Assembly (NCBI GenBank): GCA_964416315.1 | Contig: CAYQDR010000011.1 | Location: 244 to 64,243, forward strand | Source of the DNA: an uncultured bacterium | GTDB taxonomy: Bacteria > Methylomirabilota > Methylomirabilia > Rokubacteriales > DASRDR01 | Direction: 5' to 3' | Length of the DNA: 64,000 nucleotides | Part shown: piece by piece, positions 1 through 20,286 of the stretch | How positions within the stretch are numbered: the first letter of the stretch is position 1 | Layout of the letters: the number at the start of each line of letters is the position of its first letter | Made by a program: the position numbers and the translations under genes | Notes under the pieces: model-generated | What the model was told of the DNA's origin: nothing | What the model saw: the letters and a program-made list of their open reading frames with translations, nothing else | Database searches by the model: none

Positions 1-2
1 AG

Positions 3-155
3 CAGGTCCTCCGGCTCTTCAGCCTCGTCGAGCGTCACGTGCTGCTCGACGACGGCCAGCCCGTGCAGGTCTTCGACGTCGAGCTGACAGACCTCCAACG
101 CCAGATCCTCGCCCTGCTCGGCGTCCCGGAGCACGCCTTCCGGCCAGCCCTGTAG
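3..155 (+). CDS. partial CDS: C-terminal end of an unidentified protein (5' end lies left of the window)
   Basis: Frame 3 is open from the window edge to TAG at 153-155 (QVLRLFSLVERHVLLDDGQPVQVFDVELTDLQRQILALLGVPEHAFRPAL). No recognisable family. Confidence 0.3.
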   Translation, partial: QVLRLFSLVERHVLLDDGQPVQVFDVELTDLQRQILALLGVPEHAFRPAL

Positions 156-221
156 GCGCCTCCGCTTCCGCGCTGGTCCCGCCCGAAATGGTCCATCAGA
201 TGTGCGGAAAGTAGGCCAAGC

Positions 222-236
222 CGGTAGTAACTACCG
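222..236. promoter_or_regulatory. perfect palindrome CGGTAGTAACTACCG about 20 nt upstream of the ORF 257 start; candidate operator (controller/C-box-like site of an R-M gene)
   Basis: Inverted repeat GGTAGT-A-ACTACC read directly from the sequence, positioned between a likely promoter region and ATG 257. Confidence 0.25.
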
Positions 237-256
237 CGGCTCCGGGCTAACTCCCG

Positions 257-1156
257 ATGCCTCCAACCACTCTTGCCGCCTTGCGGCATGACCGCGGGAA
301 ACTCACGCTAGGCGCCGACCGTGCAATAATGCTGGCCGAGCTCCGGAGGGCGCACATGCGTGACCTCTCAGGGGACCAATTGACCTCAGACGAGATCGAG
401 ATAGTCGAGAAGATATCTCTGCGTCTCGTTGTCCAGGCGATTGTCACCTTCGGGACCCAGGCCTGGTTGGAGTTCCGTGATTCTCCCGACAAGGAACAGG
501 ACATCACCCAGGACATTCTGCGGGATGCCTTGGATGAGCTGGCCGGCTTCTCTCGTCGCCAGAGACTACTCGGGACCGTTGACTACCGCCGAGCGCGCTG
601 GCTACCGACACCGTTCGGATTGGTTCCGCAAGCGCTTTACGTTGACGCAAAGGCCTCCCAAGAGGCCTACCGGATCAATCTACAGCTGTCGCAGATCTCC
701 ATGCGGCCGATCTACTGGGACAAGGTTTCCAAGCAGCCGGTCGAGCGGATACCCGGGGTGCCGGCAACGTCTAAGTTCGTCTTCCCGAATGAACAGACAC
801 GCGACGCCATCACGACGACGATATTCGTCCACATGGTGTACAAGGAAGAGAAGGCAGGCGACGGACCGCCGGTTCGCATGCTGGTTCACGCCGTTGTCGT
901 CGCGATCCCGAACGGCAAGTTGGAGGCCCGATACGCACCAAGCGCCGCCGACACGATCTGGCGAGCGGGGAAGCACAGCCCAAGCCGCGGAGAAGAGCCG
1001 CGGACCCGCATCTCTATCGCGGCATTACAGACCAAGGCGCGATGGAGAGTTCAACGTGTCGAATGGGACGAGAACGGAAGAGTGTCCTGCTCGTGGGTGG
1101 ACGTTGATGACAGCGGAAATCCCATCTCCCATGATGTGGTCGCGGATGCTCGATAG
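257..1156 (+). CDS. hypothetical protein; candidate restriction endonuclease cognate to the adjacent methyltransferase
   Basis: 299-aa ORF with coding-like composition in a lower-GC island. Convergent with the MTase gene, 1-nt gap between stops, a typical type II R-M layout. No family motif recognised, so the function is inference only. Confidence 0.5.
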   Translation: MPPTTLAALRHDRGKLTLGADRAIMLAELRRAHMRDLSGDQLTSDEIEIVEKISLRLVVQAIVTFGTQAWLEFRDSPDKEQDITQDILRDALDELAGFSRRQRLLGTVDYRRARWLPTPFGLVPQALYVDAKASQEAYRINLQLSQISMRPIYWDKVSKQPVERIPGVPATSKFVFPNEQTRDAITTTIFVHMVYKEEKAGDGPPVRMLVHAVVVAIPNGKLEARYAPSAADTIWRAGKHSPSRGEEPRTRISIAALQTKARWRVQRVEWDENGRVSCSWVDVDDSGNPISHDVVADAR

Positions 1157-1157
1157 C

Positions 1158-2441
1158 TTAGGGAGTCAGCTCGAAGAGTTCGCCTTGAACCCTCGTCACT
1201 TCTCGTCGGCGCAGCGGCCGGCAATCCTCAAATCGAGCAATAGCCATTGCGCAGTATTCCCGGACGACATCGATCCCGATGAAGCGTCCTCCAAGAGATA
1301 GGGTCGCCACCCCGGTTGTCCCCGCGCCGCAGAAGGGATCCAGGCAAAGCCCGCCAGGTGGCAGCGTCGCCATGAGAAGGGTTTGGGCCAGCGCCTTGGG
1401 CATCGTGGCGAAATGCTCGCGGTCGAATGGTTCAACCGACACACTCAGCACATCTCCGGGATTCTTGCCTTTCGGGTGGTTTCGAATCCGATTGTCACCG
1501 ATCTCGACTCGCATGGCTTCATCGTATGTGTTGTCCAGCTTCAGCAATACCTTGAGTTGGCCCCAGATTTTTGGCGGGGGCAGACGGGACCCAATCTTAT
1601 CCGGCCGGAAGTAATGTCGAACTCGTTCGTAGGGAAGCCTCAAGGCTCGCGCCACATCGCGGACATGGAGCTCGCGTCTACCCGCAGACTCCTTTAGGTA
1701 AGCCGCTAACTCCCACGGGTCAGGAGCGTTGGGACGTCGCTCCACATCCTTGTGACCGTCGATGTGGATCCGATGTCGTGGTGAGTTCAGCCACCTCCGA
1801 AGCTCCAGTTTTCCCATTGCCTTGCCGTTTGCCGCGTCCAGCCGCGCAAGACGGGCAAGCTCAACAGCGTCAGAGGTCTTTGGCCTAACGCGAATCCGGT
1901 CTAGGTCAAAGAAGTACTCTTCGTCCTTAGCGAGAAGAAAGACCGGCTCCCATCGATTGGCCAAGCGATCGGTAACACTGGCTGGGATGGCATTTGGCTT
2001 TGACCACACCAAACAGTTCCGGACGATCCAGCCAGAGTCCTGGAGTGCAATGGCGACGCGGAAGGGCAAGAGGCTCAGCTGCTTGTTCCGATTCCATGCC
2101 TGCCTATAGCGCTGCTCCGAGTTCTCAGAATACTTTGGTCCGCGGAAGTACACGTCGCCGATATTGAGCCATACGGTCCCGCGCATCTTAAGAAGACGCC
2201 GAATTTCCTCAAACAACTTAACCAGGCGCTCGACATAGAGCGCCGGTTCCTCCTCGGCGCCGAACTGATGCTCAATGCCGTAGTCCCGTGTCCCCCAATA
2301 GGGGGGCGAAGTCAGTACCGTATCGACCGTATCTTCCGTCAGCTGTCTCAAGACCTCGAGGCAGTCTCCGACGTGAACGACTGCCTTACCGTTCGATGTC
2401 TTGAGGACGCGTGGGGTCGAGGTCCCGCCAGAACGTGACAT
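1158..2441 (-). CDS. DNA methyltransferase, N6-adenine/N4-cytosine amino-MTase (beta-class motif order IV then I)
   Basis: Motif IV TSPPYW near the N-terminus and motif I LDPFCGAGTTGVA near the C-terminus (N6_N4_Mtase fold). SD GGGAGGG lies 8 nt upstream of ATG at 2441. Confidence 0.85.
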   Translation of the reverse strand: MSRSGGTSTPRVLKTSNGKAVVHVGDCLEVLRQLTEDTVDTVLTSPPYWGTRDYGIEHQFGAEEEPALYVERLVKLFEEIRRLLKMRGTVWLNIGDVYFRGPKYSENSEQRYRQAWNRNKQLSLLPFRVAIALQDSGWIVRNCLVWSKPNAIPASVTDRLANRWEPVFLLAKDEEYFFDLDRIRVRPKTSDAVELARLARLDAANGKAMGKLELRRWLNSPRHRIHIDGHKDVERRPNAPDPWELAAYLKESAGRRELHVRDVARALRLPYERVRHYFRPDKIGSRLPPPKIWGQLKVLLKLDNTYDEAMRVEIGDNRIRNHPKGKNPGDVLSVSVEPFDREHFATMPKALAQTLLMATLPPGGLCLDPFCGAGTTGVATLSLGGRFIGIDVVREYCAMAIARFEDCRPLRRREVTRVQGELFELTP

Positions 2442-2546
2442 GATCCCGTCCCTCCCGCGATGAGCGCCACCGGTAGGGTAGCAACTTCACCATGCCCTGT
2501 CAACTAGATGTTGTGGGTACGCGGATGCGCAAGCCCTAGGGCTTGT

Positions 2547-2574
2547 GACGCCGGTTCGATCCCGGGTCTATCCA
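2547..2574 (+). other. tRNA-like 3' fragment (T-arm GCCGG-TTCGATC-CCGGG plus acceptor 3' strand TCTATCC-A); no matching 5' half, so probably an att-site remnant
   Basis: Canonical T-loop TTCGATC with a 4-5 bp stem followed by 7 nt and a discriminator. A complementary acceptor 5' strand is not found upstream. A 16-bp perfect palindrome CAAGCCCTAGGGCTTG lies just 5' at 2530-2545. Confidence 0.3.
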
Positions 2575-2634
2575 GGCGCGGCGCCCAGCTTGGCCTCGCG
2601 TCCTGCATCAGGTCCACCCCTCGCTGACGATGTT

Positions 2635-2760
2635 CTACCGCTCGAAGACGGAGGGGGTCTCGTGCCGGCTGATCTGCCTGGCCAGCCGCTCAGGGATGCC
2701 GGCTCGGACCATGTTCCGGATGGCTGTACGCCGGAGGTCGTGGAAAATCATCCCCGGCAT
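2635..2760 (-). pseudogene. tyrosine recombinase (phage integrase family) C-terminal fragment; N-terminal ~300 aa missing
   Basis: Minus-strand translation [41 protein letters not shown]-stop matches the integrase box II region (HDLRRT ... GH.T). The in-frame continuation NIVSEG after the TAG suggests Tyr(TAY) to stop. Upstream ORF sequence is not integrase-like. Confidence 0.55.
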
Positions 2761-3155
2761 GTCACGCACGCACGCCGGCCCTCTTGCACTCCTTGCGCCA
2801 GGTCCCGTGGAACCGCAGGATGCGCTGGCCCTGGCGGTGGAAGACCCAAGAATGATCAACCCGCGCCAGCGCTCTAGGGTCTCAGTGGCTGGCCGCCTTC
2901 TGAGTCTTGAGGACCGCCAAGAGGCCGGGAGAAACGTAAGCGGCCCGCCCCCCGGATCCAAGCGGATACACCCCGTCTCCAGGTAGACCTGCCGCCACTA
3001 AAGCCTGAGGATTTCCCGCAGGCGCCAAGCCCCAGCTCGTGGCACGGCCCCTCCTGGCTCCGACGGACACCAGCCCTAGGGCCTGCTCTTGTAGGCGCCC
3101 ACAACATCTGCTATGCTTAACCAGTTCGAGGCCCGGGGTAGGGCGGAGTGAAGCC

Positions 3156-4508
3156 ATGTGTTCGGCGCGGGGCGTTCTTCCGCCGGGGGCGGTTGTGAGT
3201 CGGAGCATTCCGCAGAGCGAGACGAAGATCCTCTTTGCCCGGTCGGGCGGCATCTGCGCTTTCCCCTACTGCGGGCGTTCGCTTGTGGAGCCTGGCTCGC
3301 TCACCGACGGCGCCGTTATGGTTGGTGAAGTCGCCCACATCGTCGCTGAGAGCCGACAGGGACCACGCGGACGCGCGCCACTCGTCGAGGCCGCCCGCAA
3401 CATGCACACTAACCTGATCCTGTTCTGCCCCGAGCACCACACGATCGTCGACGCTCGGCCTGAGACATACAGTGTGGCAGTCTTGAGGCAGATGAAGGTC
3501 GATCACGAATCGCACGTCCAGCGGGCGGTCGGCGTCCCAGCGCACCGGCCTCTCTCGTCTCCCCGAACTGAGGCGATCTACAGCACCGGGCTGCCTGTCA
3601 CGCATCTCCCCGATGCGGTCTTCTTCGCGGGGTGCACGCTTGAGGACGGCACGGAAGACCAGGTAAAGAAGCTCATCAAGTATCCCAGCTCGTACGATGA
3701 ATTGGTTCCCTTCCTTCTTCGTGAGAGGAAGATCTTTGCCTTCCACGATCTGCGTCAGGCCCAGAACCCGTTTTCTCCGGTCACCGACAGCGCAAGCGCT
3801 GGGATGCTTCGCTCGACAGATCTGTGGCGCGATGCGGAAGGTAAGCGACGCTACGTCACGCTTCTCAATCGCTCCCTCTACAAGTACAGCGCCCGAGTGG
3901 CCGTCAGATACGACCCCGCGCACTATCGCTTCTACTTCCCACCCAAGACGCTGGGCAGTTCGCGCACGGTGAGGTACCGGTCGCTCGCGGGACGGTGGAG
4001 CAGGCGGAAGGTCGTCTGGCCGGCCACGAAGAAGTCGACGGGCGAAGCGCGCAACTACTGGTGGCATTTGGCAGCGGCATTGAAGTTCCACCAAATGGCG
4101 GACATGCAGTGGTGTTTAAGCATCCGACCTGAGCGGCATCTCACGACCGACGGCGAGATGCCGCTTCCGTCGGAGATGATCGGCCGCCGAGTGACCCGCC
4201 TCAAGGCGCGGATGTATAACGATCTCTACCTCGCCGAGGTCAACTTCTGGCGGGAGTACCTGTCAAAGGGCGCGCCGCGCGTCACCTTGAACTTCGGCGA
4301 TCAGTCGGGGGTCATCGAGGCCGCTTTCATGCGCATTGTTATGAAGTGGCCTGGGATTCCTGGCGATCAGAAAACAGTGAGTGGACCGACTTCCGACGAT
4401 CTCTTCAGCCTTGTTGATCTCGCGGAGACCGTCGAGGGCGAAGAGATCGAGTGGACCGATGGAGACGGGGACGAACTCGAAGAGGATCCTGACATCGATG
4501 GCAACTAG
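3156..4508 (+). CDS. HNH endonuclease domain protein with ~330-aa C-terminal extension; candidate nuclease-APAZ partner of the downstream short Argonaute
   Basis: N-terminal HNH motif ICAFPYCGRS...VGEVAHIVAE...NLILFCPEHHTIVD. GGAG sits 6 nt before ATG 3156. The stop TAG 4506-4508 overlaps the pAgo start 4498 (ATGGCAACTAG), implying translational coupling. APAZ identity of the C-terminal domain is inferred from context, not recognised by motif. Confidence 0.7.
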   Translation: MCSARGVLPPGAVVSRSIPQSETKILFARSGGICAFPYCGRSLVEPGSLTDGAVMVGEVAHIVAESRQGPRGRAPLVEAARNMHTNLILFCPEHHTIVDARPETYSVAVLRQMKVDHESHVQRAVGVPAHRPLSSPRTEAIYSTGLPVTHLPDAVFFAGCTLEDGTEDQVKKLIKYPSSYDELVPFLLRERKIFAFHDLRQAQNPFSPVTDSASAGMLRSTDLWRDAEGKRRYVTLLNRSLYKYSARVAVRYDPAHYRFYFPPKTLGSSRTVRYRSLAGRWSRRKVVWPATKKSTGEARNYWWHLAAALKFHQMADMQWCLSIRPERHLTTDGEMPLPSEMIGRRVTRLKARMYNDLYLAEVNFWREYLSKGAPRVTLNFGDQSGVIEAAFMRIVMKWPGIPGDQKTVSGPTSDDLFSLVDLAETVEGEEIEWTDGDGDELEEDPDIDGN

Positions 4509-5927
4509 ACTCGCCGCGCTCAAGCTTGCCTGTCCCTACATCGCAACCGAGTGGTTTGATGAACCGGAACTGCTATTCGCCGGTGGCTCGAGACACGTCG
4601 ACCCCAAAGTCGGGGTACCGCTCTACGGGCCGCGTTCGTTCGGGGAGCCGCGGCATAAGCGGGAACTCCATGTCGGCTTTATCGGAACCAGCGAAGCCGT
4701 TGAACATGCACGAATGTTCTATGAAAGGTGCGCAGCCGGCGTAGCCGGGACTGGCGAGGACGCGCCCTTCCCGGGCTGCAAGGAGGACCGAGGATACCGC
4801 TGCGAACTGCGGACCGATGACCGGATCGTTGAACTCATCACGAGGCAGGAGAGCAACGAACTCCTCGGAATCAAGAACAGCCGGAAGCGCTTCGAGACGA
4901 TTCTCATGCTTCTGCACGCAAAGATGCGTCTCCTTACCCAACGGGACCATCCGCTCGACTACGTGTCTGTCGTGCTCGCCGAGGACGTCTATCGAAAGTG
5001 CCGTGTCGCAAACTACACGGAAAAAGGCATGGGCCTGGTCCACCGCGATCTCAGACTGGCGTTTAAGGCGCTCGCGATGCAGTTCCATCCGCCGACCCAA
5101 ATGCTCCTCGAAACAACGACCGGACTTACGCCGCCGACTCGCCGGAAGCTTGATCACCAGTCGCGCATCGCGTGGAATCTTTTACGGCGCTCTACTTCAA
5201 GGTTGACGGCCTGCCGTGGAGCCCCGTTGGCCTTGCGCCCGGCAGTTGCTTCATCGGCATCAGCTTTTTCCGCCCGCTCGGAGAAAGGTCGACGCTACGG
5301 ACGAGCGTGGTCCAGGCATTCGATGAAGACGGGGAGGGCTTGGTGTTGAGGGGCCACAAGTTTCAGTGGGACGAGTCGCAAGGTAGGTCGCCCCATCTCT
5401 CAGAAGAGATGGCCGGGATGCTTATCGAGATGGTTTTGGAGCGTTACAGGCAGGAGCGCAGGCACCTTCCGCAGCGAGTCATCGTTCAGAAGACCTCACG
5501 CTTTGAGGTGGCAGAGCGAGCGGGCTTTGAAGAGGCCCTTAAGAAGGTGAGCCGGTACGACCTTCTCTCGCTGTGTCCCGAGAGTTCGATCCGCCTTGTG
5601 CGAGCCGGACGTTATCCGCCGCTTCGGGGAGCGGCCTTCCGGATCGGGGACGCCTGGTACCTTTACACGAGCGGATATCTGACGAGCCTCGGCGGGTATC
5701 CGCATGGTCACGTCCCGTCCCCGCTTCAGATTACCGACCATGTTGGTGATACGCCCGGGACGCAGCTGCTACGCGAGATTCTTGTGCTCACCAAGATGAA
5801 TCTGAATTCCGCGAATATGTCGGGACTGATGCCGATCACGCTGCGCTTCTCGCGACTCGTCGGCGATATTCTCCGGGAGGTACCGGAGAGCCAGACACCG
5901 CAACCCCAGTATAAGTACTACATGTAG
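4498..5927 (+). CDS. short prokaryotic Argonaute (MID-PIWI only, about 476 aa), catalytically inactive PIWI; reading frame interrupted by a 1-nt indel at T-run 5180-5183
   Basis: MID-like K...HPPTQ...K segment followed by a bridging IAWNL motif. Canonical PIWI entry motif TALYFKVDGLPW. First catalytic GxDV is replaced by CFIGISF and the RDG motif by QKTSRF (DEDX lost). C-terminal PIWI segment RIGDAWYLYTSGY...PITLRFSRLVGDIL. ORFs 4381-5349 (frame 1) and 5172-5927 (frame 3) join to a continuous Ago sequence if one T is added at 5180-5183. Confidence 0.75.
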
Positions 5928-6019
5928 TTGGGCTGCTCACCTGCCATCGACTAGGCAGCGGAAGCAAGCCGGGCTTGAGCATGTGTTTTCGGGCCTTGGC
6001 CGTGATAGACCGCTCGTAA

Positions 6020-6460
6020 CCGGCGCGGCACGAACACTCGACCCAGAGCCAGTTGGTCATCGGGCCGGCGATCGTCCTGGGGCTGAGCCAGGGGGCGTAC
6101 ATCGCCCGCATGTCCCGCTCGTGTCTCCTCGAGGTGATCCGCGAGGACTTCGTCCGGACCGCGCGGGCGAAAGGGCTGATCGAAGGCCTGGTCGTCCTGC
6201 GGCACGCGCTGCCCAACGCCCTCCTCCCGGTCATCACGGTCTCGGGGATCCTGATGGGCTTCGTGCTCGGCGGCTCGGTGGCGGTCGAGCAGGCCTTCGG
6301 CGTGCCGGGGCTCGGCCGGGCCCTCGTCACGGCCGTGATCGAGCGGGACATCGTGGTCGTGCAGAACCTGGTGCTGCTCTACGGCGTCATCTTCGTCCTG
6401 ATCAACGTCCTCGTCGACCTGAGCTACGCGTGGCTGGATCCGCGGATTCGCTATCAGTAG
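6020..6460 (+). pseudogene. DppB/OppB-family ABC permease, C-terminal ~135-aa fragment only (5' part of the gene absent)
   Basis: The frame opens after TAA 6017-6019. Sequence PAIVLGLSQGAYIARMSRSCLLEVIREDFVRTARAKGL...DPRIRYQ matches the conserved C-terminal third of DppB. There is no upstream homology. It abuts the lower-GC island. Confidence 0.6.
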
Positions 6461-6495: not shown

Positions 6496-7410
6496 GTGCG
6501 GCGCTCGGTCCTCGGCGAGCTGTGGCGCGTGGCCTGGCGCAACCCCACGGCCCTGGTCGGGGGGATCCTGGTCGCCGTCGTCGTCCTGATGGCCGTCGGC
6601 GCGCCGCTCGTCGCGCCCGCCGACCCCCTGAAGACGGACTTCCGGCGCCTGAGCCGGCCCCCGGACGCGCAGAGCCTCTTCGGGACCGACCAGGTGGGCC
6701 GGGACTCCTTGAGCCGGGTGATCTACGGGGCGCGCGCGTCCATGGTGGTGGCGTTCTCGGCGGTGCTCCTGGGGACGACCGTGGGCGCCCTCTGGGGCCT
6801 GGCGTGCGGCTACCTCGGGGGCCGGTTCGACCTCGTCAGCCAGCGGGTCATGGAGGTGCTCCAGTCCTTTCCGGACCTGATCCTGGCGATGGCCATCTCC
6901 ATGGCCATCGGCACCGGGATGCCGGCGGTGATCGTGGCGATCGCCGTCACCCGGATCCCCTTCGGCGGCCGGGTGATCCGCTCGGTGGCGCTGAGCGTGA
7001 AGGAGCTGGCCTACGTGGAGGCGGGGCGGTCGTCCGGGGCGTCGGCCGTGCGGATCATGACGTACCACGTCCTGCCGCAGTGCCTCGCGCCCTATCTGGT
7101 CCTCGCCACCACGCACCTCGGGGTCGCCATCGTCATCGAGGCGGCGCTGGGGTTTCTCGGGGTGGGGATTCCGCCGCCCACGCCGACCTGGGGCAACATG
7201 CTGGCGGATTCGCTGACGTCCCTGGTGCCGCACTGGTGGCTCGTGTTCTTTCCGGGGCTGGCCATCACGGTCACGGTACTGGCGTTCAACCTACTCGGGG
7301 ACGGCATTCGGGACACGCTCGACCCGCGCCTGTCGCCGGCCTTCCTGCGCCTCGTTACCACCGGCCGGTCCGGCGGCGCTGGGACCCTCGGGCTTTCGAG
7401 CAAGCAGTAG
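6496..7410 (+). CDS. ABC transporter permease, DppC/OppC family
   Basis: GELWRVAWRNPTALVGG...FGTDQVGRD...LGDGIRDTLDPRL are typical OppC N-terminal and EAA-loop region features. GTG start at 6496 is in frame. Confidence 0.75.
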   Translation: MRRSVLGELWRVAWRNPTALVGGILVAVVVLMAVGAPLVAPADPLKTDFRRLSRPPDAQSLFGTDQVGRDSLSRVIYGARASMVVAFSAVLLGTTVGALWGLACGYLGGRFDLVSQRVMEVLQSFPDLILAMAISMAIGTGMPAVIVAIAVTRIPFGGRVIRSVALSVKELAYVEAGRSSGASAVRIMTYHVLPQCLAPYLVLATTHLGVAIVIEAALGFLGVGIPPPTPTWGNMLADSLTSLVPHWWLVFFPGLAITVTVLAFNLLGDGIRDTLDPRLSPAFLRLVTTGRSGGAGTLGLSSKQ

Positions 7411-17623: not shown

Positions 17624-18127
17624 GTGAAGATGCCGGTCAAGACGAACGCCGCGCGAATGCTGGAGGCGCGCGGCATCGCGTACCGCGCCACGGTCTACGA
17701 TCCCTCGGGCGCCTTCCACTCGGCCGACGAGGCCGCGGAGCTCCTGGGCGCGCCGGCGGAGGCGGTCTACAAGACGCTCGTGGTGCTCCGCGAGACGATC
17801 CGCCGGGAGCGACCGCTGCTCGTTCTCGTCCCATCCCGCGCCCAGCTCGATCTGAAGCTCCTCGCCCGCGGGCTCGGCGAGAAGAAGGTGCGCATGGCGA
17901 CCCAGCGCGAGGCCGAGGCGTTGACGGGCTTGCAGGTCGGCGGGATCTCCGCCCTGGCGGTCCGCCAGGGCGCCTTCGACGTCTACCTCGACGAGAGCGC
18001 CCGCGCGCGGGAGACGATCCACGTCAGCGCGGGCGTCCGCGGCGTGGACTTCGAGCTCCGGGTGGCCGATCTGGTCGCCGTCACGGGGGCGCGCTGGCTC
18101 CGCGCAGTTTCTGATTACGCTTGGTGA
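17624..18127 (+). CDS. ybaK: Cys-tRNA(Pro)/Cys-tRNA(Cys) deacylase, YbaK family
   Basis: MKMPVKTNAARMLEARGIAYRATVYD...VYKTLVV matches the YbaK/ProX deacylase family. Confidence 0.75.
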   Translation: MKMPVKTNAARMLEARGIAYRATVYDPSGAFHSADEAAELLGAPAEAVYKTLVVLRETIRRERPLLVLVPSRAQLDLKLLARGLGEKKVRMATQREAEALTGLQVGGISALAVRQGAFDVYLDESARARETIHVSAGVRGVDFELRVADLVAVTGARWLRAVSDYAW

Positions 18128-18206
18128 AGCCGCGCTCGAACTTGTCGGTCAACCTGGGAGGGGAGTTCTGGAGGGTCCGGTTTGGGGCGGCCGAGCGGTG
18201 GTTCGA

Positions 18207-18917
18207 CTAGCCGAATCGGCGCTGGTACAGTTCGCTGATCCTTGTGAGCGCGGCTCCGTAGTCAAGTTCGACTCGTCGCGGATCGAGCCAATTGAACGGA
18301 TACGGCCGTTGGTTGGTCGCCCGAAACTGGAGGATGAGCAACTCGTCGTAGCGCCTCAGAAGCTGATCTTTGATTCGTTGAATTACTGTCTTCGGCTCCT
18401 GCTCTCGGAGCTCATGCCTAAAGGCACGTGACCCCTCGTACCCGACATAGTTCGCCTCGTGGTTCACGCCAATTATCGCGACATTGATGCATCGGCGGTT
18501 CAGGGACTTCATGCGCTGCGCGAATCCGTCAAGGTCGTTGATGACCCGATCGATTTGTTTGAGCTGAGACTTCGCTAGGATCTTCACCTCACAGCCAATC
18601 CTCGGTTCTGCTACAGGGCCTTCCGGAACCGAGAAACCCCGAGGAGTCTTGCGGGAACCTATTCCTGCTGGGGGCTTCCCAAGGACGCTGTCATTCCGTC
18701 TGATAGCCCTCGGAGTATGTATTCTGCCACCCCGATTTGCGAGGCCGCGGAGCGTCCGCACGTGCTGCGCATAGCCCGGGGAATCTGAGTGGTCGAACAG
18801 ATCTTCGAACAGTTCCCGCCCGATCTTGTTTCCCAGGCTCGAGTCGCGGTGCTTGTAGATCTTCCCCTTGAACGTCTGCCGGAAGCGTTCAAGGAGCCTG
18901 AATGTGGTGTTCGCCAT
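18207..18917 (-). CDS. hypothetical protein; candidate type II restriction endonuclease (possible PE-x12-EVK nuclease motif)
   Basis: Low-GC ORF immediately downstream of and co-oriented with an N4/N6 MTase gene. Function inferred from context only. Confidence 0.45.
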   Translation of the reverse strand: MANTTFRLLERFRQTFKGKIYKHRDSSLGNKIGRELFEDLFDHSDSPGYAQHVRTLRGLANRGGRIHTPRAIRRNDSVLGKPPAGIGSRKTPRGFSVPEGPVAEPRIGCEVKILAKSQLKQIDRVINDLDGFAQRMKSLNRRCINVAIIGVNHEANYVGYEGSRAFRHELREQEPKTVIQRIKDQLLRRYDELLILQFRATNQRPYPFNWLDPRRVELDYGAALTRISELYQRRFG

Positions 18918-18931
18918 CTGGTCGAGGCGAT

Positions 18932-19888
18932 CTATTCAGCGTGGATCCTTGCGGGTAGCTTCTCCTTGTGAACGAACTGCCGGAGACGCTGAACCGACGC
19001 AGCGTGGTAGGAGGGCTCGACCTCGATTCCGATGCTATTCCGACCAGCGCGCGCCGCTGCAAGGCTCGTCGTACCCGTGCCCGAGAAGGGGTCGAGAACC
19101 GTGTCGCCGGCGAAACTGAACATGCGGATCATACGCTCGCCGAGTTCCATCGAAAATGGTGCAGGATGTGCGCGTGTTGACGTGCCGGGTAGTCGCGAAA
19201 TCTGGTTGAACCAAGTTCGGTGTTGTTTCTCACCAATGAGGCTCAGAATCCGCATGGCGTCCGTCGGGCGTCTGTAGGCTCCGGGCTTCCGCTGCATGAG
19301 AATGAACTCAATATCATTCTTGATGATCGCATTGGGTTCGTAGGGCTTGCCAAGGAACGCCGTCCCATTCTCCACTTCGAAGGCGGCATTCGCGATCTTG
19401 TACCAGATGATTGGCGCGAGGTTATGAAACCCTAGCTCGGCGCAGTGAACCTGGATCGCGGCATGGAGTGGCACGACCATGTGGGCACCGTGCTTCCTCC
19501 GCGACAGGCAAACGTCGCCCACCACGACTACAAGTCGGCCGCCCTTGACGAGTACCCGGAAACACTCTGTCCAAACGCGGTCCAACTCCTTCAGGAAGAC
19601 GTGGAGATCGGTCAGGCATCCGAGCTGGGCTTCATTTTCGGGGTAGCGCTTCAACGTCCAGTAGGGCGGGGAAGTCACGATTAGATGCACCGATTCGTCC
19701 GACACGCGGCTTATGTTGCGAGCATCGCTGAGGTAGAGCCGGTGCTCTGTTGGAATCTCCTTGATTGCCTTAGCGATGGCGCGCAAAGCCGAACGATCCT
19801 TCGCGAGTCTGGGAATCGCGTTCTGGGGAAGTCGGCGGGACGCCAAGTGCGGTAGGTGCCGAGCAATGAGGTCTTCGAGCGCCCTCAA
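18932..19888 (-). CDS. DNA methyltransferase, N4-cytosine/N6-adenine (beta-class amino-MTase)
   Basis: Motif IV IVTSPPYW and motif I LDPFSGTGTT. The ORF runs to 20122 but has no ATG. TTG at 19888 is preceded by GAGG. Start uncertain. Confidence 0.8.
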   Translation of the reverse strand: MRALEDLIARHLPHLASRRLPQNAIPRLAKDRSALRAIAKAIKEIPTEHRLYLSDARNISRVSDESVHLIVTSPPYWTLKRYPENEAQLGCLTDLHVFLKELDRVWTECFRVLVKGGRLVVVVGDVCLSRRKHGAHMVVPLHAAIQVHCAELGFHNLAPIIWYKIANAAFEVENGTAFLGKPYEPNAIIKNDIEFILMQRKPGAYRRPTDAMRILSLIGEKQHRTWFNQISRLPGTSTRAHPAPFSMELGERMIRMFSFAGDTVLDPFSGTGTTSLAAARAGRNSIGIEVEPSYHAASVQRLRQFVHKEKLPARIHAE

Positions 19889-20286
19889 GCCAGCCTCACT
19901 CTGGTCACCCTTATACTCAATATCTGGGGTGCTGTCAAGCCTCAGGCTACGACATCTCGTTGATCTCCAGCCATCTGGGCACCGACAGGGGGCCCCGCTT
20001 TCGCTCAGGGCCGGGCGGCTCTGCTCGGTCGGTTCGAACCGAAACGCCTGCTGGCGGCCTGGGTCAGGCTGAGGGTGGGGAACCCGCCTTTTGTGTAGTC
20101 GGCACCGTGGTCCGGGGCACATGGTCTGGGGTCCTGGTCACTCCCACGAGCAACATCTGTGCCGATCTGCAGGGTAAGGTCGAAGCGGCGGAAATTGACG
20201 GCGCCCGCAGTTAGGATGTCATCATCCCGACCCCGGCGACGGGAGTGGACAGGGAGGCCAAAGGGGATACAGCGGCTGGTCGGCCG

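What the first reader, a model, noticed from the sequence alone, without database searches (positions are those of the whole stretch)
3156..5927. Translationally coupled HNH-nuclease/long-C-terminal-domain protein + catalytically dead MID-PIWI short Argonaute: candidate nuclease-APAZ/short-pAgo defence module
The downstream gene has unmistakable Argonaute hallmarks seen directly in the sequence: the MID-like segment with HPPTQ, the IAWNL bridge, the PIWI entry motif ALYFKVDGLPW, and a degenerate RNase-H core (GxDV replaced by CFIGISF, RDG by QKTSRF). At about 476 aa with no N/PAZ domains, it is a short pAgo. Short pAgos always work with a partner carrying an APAZ domain fused to an effector (SIR2, TIR, Mrr/DREN-type nucleases). 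Here the upstream gene has an N-terminal HNH nuclease (CxxC...H...N...HH) and a ~330-aa unannotated C-terminal domain ending in an acidic tail. Its stop overlaps the pAgo start (ATGGCAACTAG). An HNH effector is a rare or little-characterised variant of these systems, and the whole module sits in a lower-GC island next to an MTase and an integrase remnant. The function (guide-dependent activation of the HNH nuclease) is inference.
Basis: partly seen in the sequence, partly recalled or inferred. Interest (0 to 1): 0.85.

Follow-up and report, generated by a model that had tools for sequence, protein, structure and literature searches.

The report
Frameshifted SPARHA Argonaute-HNH defence operon
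This is an ordinary new copy of SPARHA, an already characterised bacterial immune system in which a short Argonaute switches on an HNH DNA-cutting enzyme; here a one-base deletion has broken the Argonaute gene.

Summary
Window 3156-5927 (+) carries two overlapping genes.

- **Effector gene:** an HNH nuclease fused to an APAZ domain (3156/3195-4508).
- **Sensor gene:** a 476-aa MID-PIWI short Argonaute (4498-5927).

Both match the two chains of a solved structure, PDB 9OM4, over their full length (E 5e-101 and 2e-138; 42% and 48% identity). 9OM4 is the AcaSPARHA filament. SPARHA (short prokaryotic Argonaute, HNH-associated) was characterised in 2025 (PMC12738770). There, RNA-guided recognition of invader DNA makes the complex form filaments. 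The HNH domains then tetramerise and degrade DNA indiscriminately, which is abortive infection.

All HNH catalytic and zinc residues, the guide 5'-end pocket residues and the 11-nt stop/start overlap are conserved here.

More than 1,200 pAgo homologues and more than 400 HNH-APAZ homologues exist in public data, and the mechanism is published.

The local peculiarity is a 1-nt deletion after the T-run 5180-5183, at the MID/PIWI junction. Three intact relatives lack it. Three metagenome assemblies of this same locus carry it. Nothing else in the gene has decayed, so the lesion looks recent. The operon sits in a low-GC defence island that is itself decaying. Interest is low.

The parts
3156..4508 (+). 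HNH-APAZ effector gene. It is 450 aa from ATG 3156; the likely true start is GTG 3195, giving 437 aa.
   Evidence: PDB 9om4_A 'HNH endonuclease', E 4.7e-101, query residues 23-449 against chain residues 8-433. Among 60 homologues there is only one deviation at columns conserved at 90% or more. Homologues start MSRxIP, which aligns to V14.
3195..3545 (+). HNH (His-Me finger) nuclease domain, Cap5-like. Numbering from ATG 3156: zinc ligands C34, C39, C91, H94; catalytic H61, N86, H95; bridge E58.
   Evidence: PADLOC HNH effector and SAVED_HNH models, E 7e-35 to 6e-27. PDB Cap5 chains 8ysq_A, 7rwk_A and 8fm1_A. C34, C39, H61, N86, C91 and H95 are invariant in 60 homologues. They align with Aca N71/H80 and with Mlla H53/E50, which the paper mutated.
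3555..4421 (+). APAZ domain (the N/L1/L2-like partner of the short pAgo), followed by an acidic C-terminal tail at 4422-4505.
   Evidence: PADLOC Aga_*-PNTD1-PNTD2 models, E 2e-33 to 1e-7, over residues 134-425. DREN-APAZ chains 9qbl_A, 9qbq_A and 9jsb_D, E 9e-11 to 1.5e-4. Y354 aligns with Aca APAZ Y340, the target-T1' pocket residue.
4498..4508 (+). 11-nt overlap (ATGGCAACTAG) between the HNH-APAZ stop and the pAgo start.
   Evidence: Read directly from the sequence. The same 11-nt overlap occurs in L001 (HNH-APAZ ORF ends at 1696, pAgo match starts at 1686) and in L008 (8001-8011).
4498..5183 (+). 5' part of the short pAgo gene (codons 1-228 and two bases of codon 229), which encodes the MID domain. 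Read on in this frame, translation runs out of frame to the stop whose last base is 5349.
   Evidence: ORF table. Alignment to 9om4_B residues 8-221. The 5'-phosphate and A1/U2 pocket residues D184, R186, K190 and D219 correspond to Aca D178, R180, K184 and D212.
5180..5184 (+). Frameshift site. The window reads CTTTT-ACG where intact relatives read CTTTTCAC or CTCTTCAC, so one base of the Phe229 codon is deleted.
   Evidence: DNA alignments with L001, L008 and L009. The same sequence, without gaps, appears in three metagenome assemblies, L005, L006 and L007.
5184..5927 (+). 3' part of the short pAgo gene (codons 230-476), which encodes the PIWI domain. It lies in the other frame.
   Evidence: ORF 5172-5927. 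Alignment to 9om4_B up to its last residue 471. dN/dS against L001 is 0.037. G254, S256, F257, K332 and S334 are invariant in 63 sequences.
257..2441 (.). Neighbouring type II restriction-modification pair: an SfiI-like endonuclease at 257-1156 (+) and an N4/N6 methyltransferase at 1158-2441 (-).
   Evidence: Pfam RestrictionSfiI E 1e-33 and N6_N4_Mtase E 3e-44. PADLOC REase_II E 1.6e-42 and MTase_II E 1.9e-145.
2506..3109 (.). Stretch bounded by inverted repeats that holds a dead tyrosine-recombinase C-terminal remnant (about 2617-2760, minus strand).
   Evidence: 42-nt inverted repeat, 76% complementary, with the outer 12 nt perfect and found nowhere else in the window. Peptide [41 protein letters not shown]. 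Pfam Phage_integrase E 0.006, below the family cut-off.
6053..6460 (+). Right border of the island: a 5'-truncated OppB/DppB-type ABC permease gene.
   Evidence: Pfam BPD_transp_1 E 4.5e-26, but only profile positions 54-183 are present. GC steps from 0.60 to 0.71 at about 6000.

Best explanation
The locus is a SPARHA operon: a short prokaryotic Argonaute with an HNH-APAZ partner, in short-pAgo clade S2B. It was acquired horizontally as part of a low-GC defence island.

**How an intact copy works** (inferred from characterised orthologues):
1. The two proteins form a heterodimer in which the MID domain sequesters the N-terminal helix of the HNH domain.
2. The pAgo loads small guide RNAs (17-21 nt in the characterised orthologues, 5'-AU preferred), drawn mostly from plasmid or phage transcripts.
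3. A guide-target duplex longer than about 10 bp on invader DNA pushes out the PIWI sensor loops and extends a connector loop.
4. The heterodimers then polymerise into helical filaments.
5. HNH dimers pair into tetramers with double active sites.
6. These degrade dsDNA indiscriminately in a Mn2+-dependent reaction, killing or arresting the infected cell (abortive infection).

**State of this copy.** A single-base deletion at codon 229, exactly at the MID/PIWI junction, interrupts the pAgo gene. Only a MID fragment with a 55-aa out-of-frame tail is predicted, so the sensor half is most likely inactive. The lesion is recent. The HNH-APAZ effector gene is still intact.

**Basis of each step.**
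- *Shown here:* homology, domain content, conserved residues, operon layout, the frameshift and its presence in three assemblies.
- *Inferred from orthologues:* the mechanism.
- *Inferred:* that the deletion is a real mutation and that it abolishes function.
For: **Identity as SPARHA**
- Both proteins match the two chains of the AcaSPARHA cryo-EM structure 9OM4 over their full length: E 4.7e-101 and 2.4e-138, at 42% and 48% identity.
- The next-best PDB hits are SPARDA pAgos (186-208 bits), then SPARTA pAgos (132-153 bits). This ranking fits clade S2B.
- PADLOC gives pAgo_I at 1.2e-138, the APAZ (PNTD1-PNTD2) models at 2e-33, and HNH/SAVED-HNH effectors at 7e-35.

**Conserved functional residues**
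- HNH residues C34, C39, H61, N86, C91 and H95 are invariant in 60 homologues. E58 occurs in 49 of 60. These are the positions mutated in the paper.
- Guide-pocket residues D184, R186, K190 and D219, PIWI R372/Y373 and APAZ Y354 match those described for Aca.

**Operon layout.** The order and overlap are conserved in L001, L008 and L009.

**The frameshift**
- It is a 1-nt deletion relative to three intact relatives.
- It is identical in the ENA, JGI and Logan assemblies of this locus.
- The closest homologues, at 84-89% identity, are all uninterrupted proteins of 476-478 aa.

**Recent lesion**
- The repaired protein deviates at 5 columns conserved at 90% or more. The family median is about 5.
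- dN/dS against L001 is 0.08 before the frameshift and 0.037 after it.

**Mechanism:** PMC12738770.
Against: - No expression or activity data exist for this locus.
- The three assemblies may derive from the same or related read sets. The SPARHA region is 100% identical in all of them, and the only SNPs lie at 6597, 6599 and 6765. They are therefore not proven independent, and no reads could be inspected. A consensus error next to the T4 run cannot be excluded.
- The paper reports that free LheHNH-APAZ is constitutively active in vitro. An intact effector beside a broken sensor might therefore be harmful. That sits awkwardly with a stable pseudogene state, unless the operon is silent or the MID fragment still restrains the HNH domain.
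- The mapping of the lost DEDX catalytic residues (S256, T333, R453) rests on motif position and on identity with AcaAgo. It was not checked by superposition on an active Argonaute.
- No sigma-70-like promoter was found upstream.
Confidence: 0.72

Rival explanations
1. The operon is intact and functional in the organism, and the missing base at 5183/5184 is a sequencing or consensus error next to a T4 homopolymer.
For: The deletion abuts a short homopolymer. The rest of the gene shows no decay at all. HNH-APAZ is fully intact. The three assemblies carrying the deletion may share reads.
Against: Three different assembly pipelines (ENA k141 contig, JGI, Logan) give the same gap-free sequence over 6.1-7.2 kb. 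The other genes examined in the first 7.4 kb (REase, MTase, HNH-APAZ, OppC) read as single uninterrupted ORFs. A run of four T is too short to be a typical error hotspot for short-read consensus; this last point rests on general knowledge.
Confidence: 0.2
2. The interruption is used by the cell. Either a -1 ribosomal slip on CUU-UUA restores full-length pAgo at low level, or MID and PIWI are made as separate polypeptides (PIWI from GTG 5172) that reassemble.
For: A -1 slip at C-UUU-UA would restore N-L-F-T. A GTG at 5172 opens the PIWI frame exactly at the domain border.
Against: The site is not an X-XXY-YYZ heptamer. The downstream 87 nt fold no better than shuffled sequence (z -0.21). No Shine-Dalgarno-like purine run precedes 5172. 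All 120 listed homologues are single proteins of 460-510 aa. Three relatives have the uninterrupted codon.
Confidence: 0.03
3. After loss of the pAgo, the intact HNH-APAZ persists as a stand-alone nuclease or toxin. It may be restrained by the residual MID fragment, which in apo-SPARHA models contacts the HNH N-terminal helix.
For: Free LheHNH-APAZ is active without guide or target. The paper's apo model has MID sequestering the HNH helix. The frameshift leaves the whole MID domain in frame. HNH-APAZ shows no degeneration.
Against: There is no evidence that this state has persisted for long. The lack of decay in the PIWI part argues that the lesion is simply young. No homologue with a MID-only partner was seen. 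Complex formation in SPARHA involves APAZ packing against MID and PIWI together.
Confidence: 0.05

Closest known systems
AcaSPARHA (Acidithiobacillus caldus short pAgo + HNH-APAZ; PDB 9OM4; Kanevskaya et al., Nat Commun 2025, PMC12738770)
   Same: The two-gene architecture and order are the same, and both proteins are homologous over their full length (E 1e-101 and 1e-138). The HNH catalytic and zinc residues, the MID 5'-phosphate/A1/U2 pocket residues, PIWI R/Y, APAZ Y and the acidic C-terminal tail are all conserved.
   Different: Identity is only 48% (pAgo) and 42% (HNH-APAZ). The window's pAgo carries a 1-nt deletion. One residue of the A1 pocket (Aca G163/R164 against window C168/R169) aligns ambiguously.
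MllaSPARHA and LheSPARHA (same paper)
   Same: Same system type. The mutated residues Mlla H53 and E50 correspond to H61 and E58 here.
   Different: Their sequences could not be retrieved here, so identity was not measured. Those copies are intact and experimentally active.
SPARDA (short pAgo + DREN-APAZ; PDB 9jsb, 9qbl, 9qbp)
   Same: It is the sister S2B system. The pAgo hits score 186-208 bits, and the APAZ domain is homologous over residues 147-371. It is also a guide-RNA/target-DNA-activated collateral nuclease that forms filaments.
   Different: The effector domain is DREN (PD-(D/E)xK-like, DUF4365) rather than HNH.
SPARTA (short pAgo + TIR-APAZ; PDB 8ifk, 8fex, 8qlo)
   Same: It has a short MID-PIWI pAgo with an APAZ partner and is activated by target-induced oligomerisation. 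The PIWI half is homologous (132-153 bits).
   Different: The effector is a TIR NADase, not a nuclease. It belongs to clade S2A, and only the C-terminal half aligns well.
Cap5 (CBASS SAVED-HNH effector; PDB 7rwk, 8fm1, 8ysq)
   Same: The HNH domain is closely related (E 8e-10 to 7e-6 in PDB; PADLOC SAVED_HNH 6e-27). Both are activated by HNH tetramerisation.
   Different: [quoted passage not shown] No Argonaute is involved.

Membership tests
SPARHA (short pAgo, HNH-associated; clade S2B) | The Argonaute has only MID and PIWI domains (no N or PAZ) and is about 470-480 aa long. | tested here: met
   The repaired product is 476 aa. Residues 15-476 align with 9om4_B residues 8-471 of 471. PADLOC pAgo_I covers profile positions 3-455 of 455.
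SPARHA (short pAgo, HNH-associated; clade S2B) | The PIWI domain lacks the DEDX slicer residues. | tested here: inconclusive
   At the GxDV and RDG positions, inferred by motif, the window has G-I-S256-F and K-T333-S. These are invariant in 63 family members and match AcaAgo, which has GISF and KTT at the same positions. In SPARHA all nuclease activity is lost on HNH mutation. No direct alignment or superposition on an active long Argonaute was made here.
SPARHA (short pAgo, HNH-associated; clade S2B) | The partner protein, with an N-terminal HNH nuclease fused to APAZ, is encoded immediately upstream on the same strand. | tested here: met
   Gene at 3156/3195-4508 (+), overlapping the pAgo start by 11 nt. 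9om4_A matches over the full length. PADLOC HNH and PNTD1-PNTD2 models both hit. The arrangement is the same in L001, L008 and L009.
SPARHA (short pAgo, HNH-associated; clade S2B) | The HNH active site and zinc site are intact. | tested here: met
   H61, N86, H95, C34, C39 and C91 are invariant. H94 occurs in 56 of 60 homologues and E58 in 49 of 60. They correspond to Aca N71/H80 and Mlla H53/E50.
SPARHA (short pAgo, HNH-associated; clade S2B) | The MID pocket for the guide 5'-phosphate and 5'-AU, and the T1' pocket, are present. | tested here: met
   D184, R186, K190, D219, R372, Y373 and APAZ Y354 align with Aca D178, R180, K184, D212, R367, Y368 and Y340. The equivalents of G163/R164 are ambiguous by one residue.
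SPARHA (short pAgo, HNH-associated; clade S2B) | Phylogenetic placement falls inside the SPARHA clade of S2B. | tested here: inconclusive
   Only a ranking of similarity was made: SPARHA 465 bits, well above SPARDA at 186-208 and SPARTA at 132-153. No tree with the reference set was built.
SPARHA (short pAgo, HNH-associated; clade S2B) | Both genes have uninterrupted reading frames (a functional system). | tested here: not met
   The pAgo has a 1-nt deletion after 5183, which is present in three assemblies. HNH-APAZ is intact.
SPARHA (short pAgo, HNH-associated; clade S2B) | Filaments form in response to guide RNA and target DNA, with Mn2+-dependent collateral DNase activity and protection against plasmids and phages. 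| not testable with these tools
   These properties are known only for the Mlla, Aca and Lhe orthologues.

The most novel reading that the evidence does not exclude
The interrupted state is not simply a dead gene. In this reading, the in-frame MID fragment still binds and silences the intact, otherwise constitutively active HNH-APAZ nuclease, giving a toxin/antitoxin-like remnant. Alternatively, separately made MID and PIWI pieces reassemble into a working split Argonaute.
Probability: 0.04. Interest if true: 0.5.

Novelty: new member of a known kind. Interest (0 to 1): 0.15.

Why it matters
It matters little beyond annotation. Three practical points follow.

1. **Annotation gap.** Current Pfam and NCBIfam models miss this whole, very large SPARHA subfamily. 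All homologues are labelled "hypothetical protein" and carry no precomputed Pfam domain. Defence-system profiles (PADLOC) or matches to solved structures are needed to name them.

2. **Natural experiment.** The sensor gene is broken while the effector gene is intact, and the effector is reported to be active on its own. This copy could therefore show how cells tolerate or lose abortive-infection nucleases.

3. **Pattern of defence islands.** The locus adds an example of SPARHA next to a type II restriction-modification pair, inside an eroding mobile island that has truncated a host ABC-permease gene.

Tried and rejected
- **Pfam on both pAgo fragments and on the repaired protein:** no hit, even at E 10. 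Pfam on HNH-APAZ gave only HNH_2 at E 0.1.
- **NCBIfam:** nothing for either protein. These negatives reflect gaps in the libraries, not absence of homology.
- **Programmed frameshifting:** the site is not a canonical slippery heptamer, and the downstream RNA structure has z -0.21. The small hairpin plus T-tail at 5161-5184 is one of 2 terminator-like matches where 2.4 are expected by chance, and its stem sequence differs in L001. Rejected.
- **Promoter scan of 2400-6200:** no sigma-70-like site. This is uninformative for an unknown host.
- **tRNA and Rfam scans of the window:** nothing found, so no tRNA-linked integration site is visible.
- **Source genome:** the genome-contig scan returned only a Vicinamibacteria MAG relative at 89% identity, not the source itself. 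The cluster look-up gave no name. A literature search for the sample accessions found nothing. The host taxon stays unknown.
- **Plasmid collection:** only distant relatives at 35% identity or less.
- **Viral contigs:** one relative at 46% identity.
- **Not run:** structure prediction, because a solved structure matches both proteins over their full length.
Full report
**1. What is in the sequence**

Two genes lie on the + strand between 3039 and 5927.

The first is an ORF ending at TAG 4506-4508.

The second begins at ATG 4498, inside the end of the first, so the two overlap by 11 nt (ATGGCAACTAG). It is not a single ORF:
- The frame opened at 4498 carries the MID-type motifs (AMQFHPPTQ, SRIAWNL) and then runs out of frame to a stop ending at 5349.
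- The PIWI-type motifs (TALYFKVDGLPW, SCFIGISFF, IVQKTSRF) lie in the frame of ORF 5172-5927.

Adding one base after the T-run 5180-5183 joins the halves into a 476-aa protein reading ...IAWNLFTALYFKVDGLPW...

The zinc motif is C-x4-C (C34AFPYC39), not CxxC.

**2. Is it more than chance?**

Pfam does not recognise either half of the pAgo, nor the repaired protein, even at E 10. For the upstream protein it gives only HNH_2 at E 0.1. NCBIfam has nothing.

Other libraries settle the question.

| Query | Library or target | Result |
|---|---|---|
| Repaired pAgo | PADLOC pAgo_I | E 1.2e-138, full profile |
| Upstream protein, residues 15-130 | PADLOC HNH effector models | E 7e-35 to 6e-27 |
| Upstream protein, residues 134-425 | PADLOC APAZ (PNTD1-PNTD2) part of SIR2-, REase- and TIR-APAZ models | E 2e-33 to 1e-7 |
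| Upstream protein | PDB 9om4_A | E 4.7e-101, residues 23-449 vs 8-433 |
| Repaired pAgo | PDB 9om4_B | E 2.4e-138, residues 15-476 vs 8-471 |

Both proteins therefore match the two chains of one solved entry over their full length. Identities computed from those alignments are 42% (HNH-APAZ) and 48% (pAgo).

**3. What 9OM4 is**

Full-text search finds one study, in two versions: Kanevskaya et al., Nat Commun 2025 (PMC12738770). It names these systems SPARHA (short prokaryotic Argonautes, HNH-associated) and describes them as a distinct clade of S2B short pAgos. The paper reports the following:
- **Complex:** pAgo and HNH-APAZ co-purify as a stable complex.
- **Trigger and activity:** only guide RNA plus target DNA switches on collateral degradation of dsDNA. 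The reaction depends on Mn2+ and is multiple-turnover.
- **Catalytic residues:** HNH mutations (Mlla H53A, Aca N71A/H80A) abolish activity.
- **Free effector:** free LheHNH-APAZ is active without guide or target, so the pAgo keeps the nuclease off until it finds a target.
- **In vivo:** SPARHA is triggered by plasmids (guides mostly from ori RNA I, with a 5'-AU end) and by some siphophages. It degrades cellular DNA, which is abortive infection.
- **Structure:** cryo-EM of AcaSPARHA shows helical filaments built from tetramers of heterodimers.
- **Polymerisation:** guide-target duplexes longer than about 10 bp displace sensor loops SL1, SL2 and SL3 and extend a PIWI connector loop, which drives polymerisation.
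- **HNH activation:** HNH domains dimerise through their N-terminal helices, and the dimers pair into tetramers with double active sites, as in the CBASS effector Cap5.

**4. Does the window copy keep the functional residues?**

Numbering is from ATG 3156. The printed alignment places:
- Aca C19, C24, C76 and H79 on C34, C39, C91 and H94;
- Aca H46 (= Mlla H53) on H61;
- Aca E43 (= Mlla E50, the "bridge") on E58;
- Aca N71 on N86 and Aca H80 on H95.

In an alignment of 60 homologues, C34, C39, H61, N86, C91 and H95 are invariant. H94 occurs in 56 of 60 and E58 in 49 of 60. The window protein deviates from a column conserved at 90% or more at only one position (A290). The family range is 0-12.

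Homologues start at MSRxIP, which aligns with V14. GTG 3195 is therefore the probable start, giving 437 aa.

In the pAgo, the residues that hold the guide 5'-phosphate and the A1/U2 bases in AcaAgo are D178, R180, K184 and D212. They correspond to D184, R186, K190 and D219 here. The T1' pocket residues R367/Y368 and APAZ Y340 correspond to R372/Y373 and Y354. The equivalents of G163/R164 are ambiguous by one residue.

At the positions where active Argonautes carry the catalytic Asp residues (the GxDV and RDG motifs; mapped by motif and from general knowledge, not tested by superposition), the window has G-I-S256-F and K-T333-S. These residues are invariant in 63 family members and shared with AcaAgo.

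**5. Family size and operon conservation**

The pAgo query returned 1,225 proteins at E <= 1e-20. The 120 best are 62-89% identical and 460-510 aa long. All lack a Pfam domain and a name. The HNH-APAZ query returned 412 proteins. The few taxon labels span Vicinamibacteria, Planctomycetota, Ignavibacteriae, Bryobacteraceae, Blastocatellia, Gemmatales and one Methanomassiliicoccales MAG.

Direct inspection shows HNH-APAZ immediately upstream of the pAgo:
- with the same 11-nt overlap in L001 and L008;
- with a 44-nt called overlap in L009, where the neighbours are McrBC, a methyltransferase and a RecD-like helicase;
- in L008, beside TraF- and SLT-like genes and a RES-domain gene.

The system is therefore common and mobile, not rare.

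**6. The frameshift**

DNA alignments with three intact relatives show that the window lacks one base of the Phe229 codon. The window reads AAT CTT TT- ACG, against AAC CTT TTC ACC in L001, CTC TTC ACC in L008 and CTT TTC GCG in L009.

Exact-protein look-ups found the same locus in three public metagenome assemblies: ENA ERZ27245685, JGI 3300022563 and Logan SRR5747861. In each, the pAgo is called as two pieces of 296 and 194 aa. These contigs align to the window without a single gap over 6.1-7.2 kb. They differ only at 6597, 6599 and 6765, outside the operon. The deletion is thus reproducible across pipelines, although the read sets may not be independent.

The lesion looks young:
- The repaired protein is not an outlier at conserved columns (5 deviations; family median about 5).
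- dN/dS against L001 is 0.08 upstream and 0.037 downstream of the frameshift. dS exceeds 1, so resolution is limited.

A programmed shift is unlikely. The site is not a canonical slippery heptamer, the downstream RNA folds no better than shuffled sequence (z -0.21), and no relative shares the interruption.

As sequenced, the product is the MID domain plus 55 out-of-frame residues. The PIWI half has no convincing start of its own.

**7. Surroundings**

Positions 1-6000 have GC 0.58-0.63, against 0.67-0.73 for the next 12 kb. From left to right the island contains:
- a partial DDE-transposase-like ORF just left of the window (seen in L005; Pfam E 2.5e-4, below cut-off);
- an SfiI-like restriction endonuclease (257-1156 +) and its methyltransferase (1158-2441 -);
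- a 604-nt stretch bounded by inverted repeats (2506-3109). It holds the last ~45 codons of a tyrosine recombinase, with a stop codon where the catalytic Tyr should be;
- the SPARHA operon;
- directly after it, only the C-terminal 135 aa of an OppB/DppB-type permease (6053-6460), followed by an OppC gene.

The island border therefore cuts a host transporter gene. Several of the island's own mobility genes are dead as well. This fits an old insertion that is eroding. No tRNA or Rfam element lies in the window.

**8. Verdict**

- **Observation:** confirmed.
- **Interpretation:** essentially right. This is an HNH-APAZ/short-pAgo defence module with guide-dependent activation.
- **Novelty:** the kind is already characterised structurally and functionally as SPARHA. 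This copy is a new, uncharacterised member at 42-48% identity to the solved orthologue.
- **Function:** this copy is probably inactivated by a recent 1-nt deletion in the sensor gene.
- **Open point:** an intact effector gene, reported active on its own in one orthologue, sits next to a broken sensor gene. I give about 4% to a reading in which this state is functional.
- **Interest:** low (0.15).

Noticed in passing
window 2506-3109: A 604-nt stretch is bounded by 42-nt imperfect inverted repeats. Their outer 12 nt (AGATGTTGTGGG) are perfect and occur nowhere else in the window. The stretch encloses a tyrosine-recombinase C-terminal remnant (about 2617-2760, minus strand) whose catalytic Tyr codon is a stop. 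It could be the relic of a small integrative element or be MITE-like.
   Followed up: partly
window 6053-6460 (+), border at about 5930-6050: Only the C-terminal 135 aa of an OppB/DppB-type ABC permease are present (Pfam profile positions 54-183). GC jumps from 0.60 to 0.71 here. The island insertion, or a later deletion, removed the 5' half of the gene. The downstream OppC gene (about 6500-7410) looks complete.
   Followed up: partly
window 18000-20200: A second low-GC islet (0.59, against about 0.73 in the flanks) holds an N4/N6 DNA methyltransferase (18932-20122, minus) and an adjacent 236-aa ORF (18207-18917, minus) that was not scanned against any library. It is probably a second restriction-modification pair.
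   Followed up: partly
window 257-2441: An SfiI-like type II restriction endonuclease and an N4/N6 methyltransferase are encoded on opposite strands, their 3' ends meeting at 1156-1158. Both look intact, and they lie next to the SPARHA operon.
   Followed up: yes
L005 1-1576 (1,421 nt to the left of the window start): A metagenome contig extends the locus leftwards. It shows a partial ORF of more than 524 aa with a weak DDE-transposase match (Pfam E 2.5e-4, below the family cut-off). The left border of the island lies outside the window.
   Followed up: partly
P0123; L010: An HNH-APAZ homologue at 80% identity is labelled as coming from a Methanomassiliicoccales archaeon MAG, which suggests horizontal transfer or mis-binning. 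One IMG/VR viral contig encodes a pAgo relative at 46% identity at its very end.
   Followed up: no
window 3156-5927 and its homologues: Pfam and NCBIfam have no model that detects this SPARHA subfamily. All 240 listed homologues are unnamed or labelled 'hypothetical protein', and only a handful carry a precomputed HNH_2 hit.
   Followed up: yes
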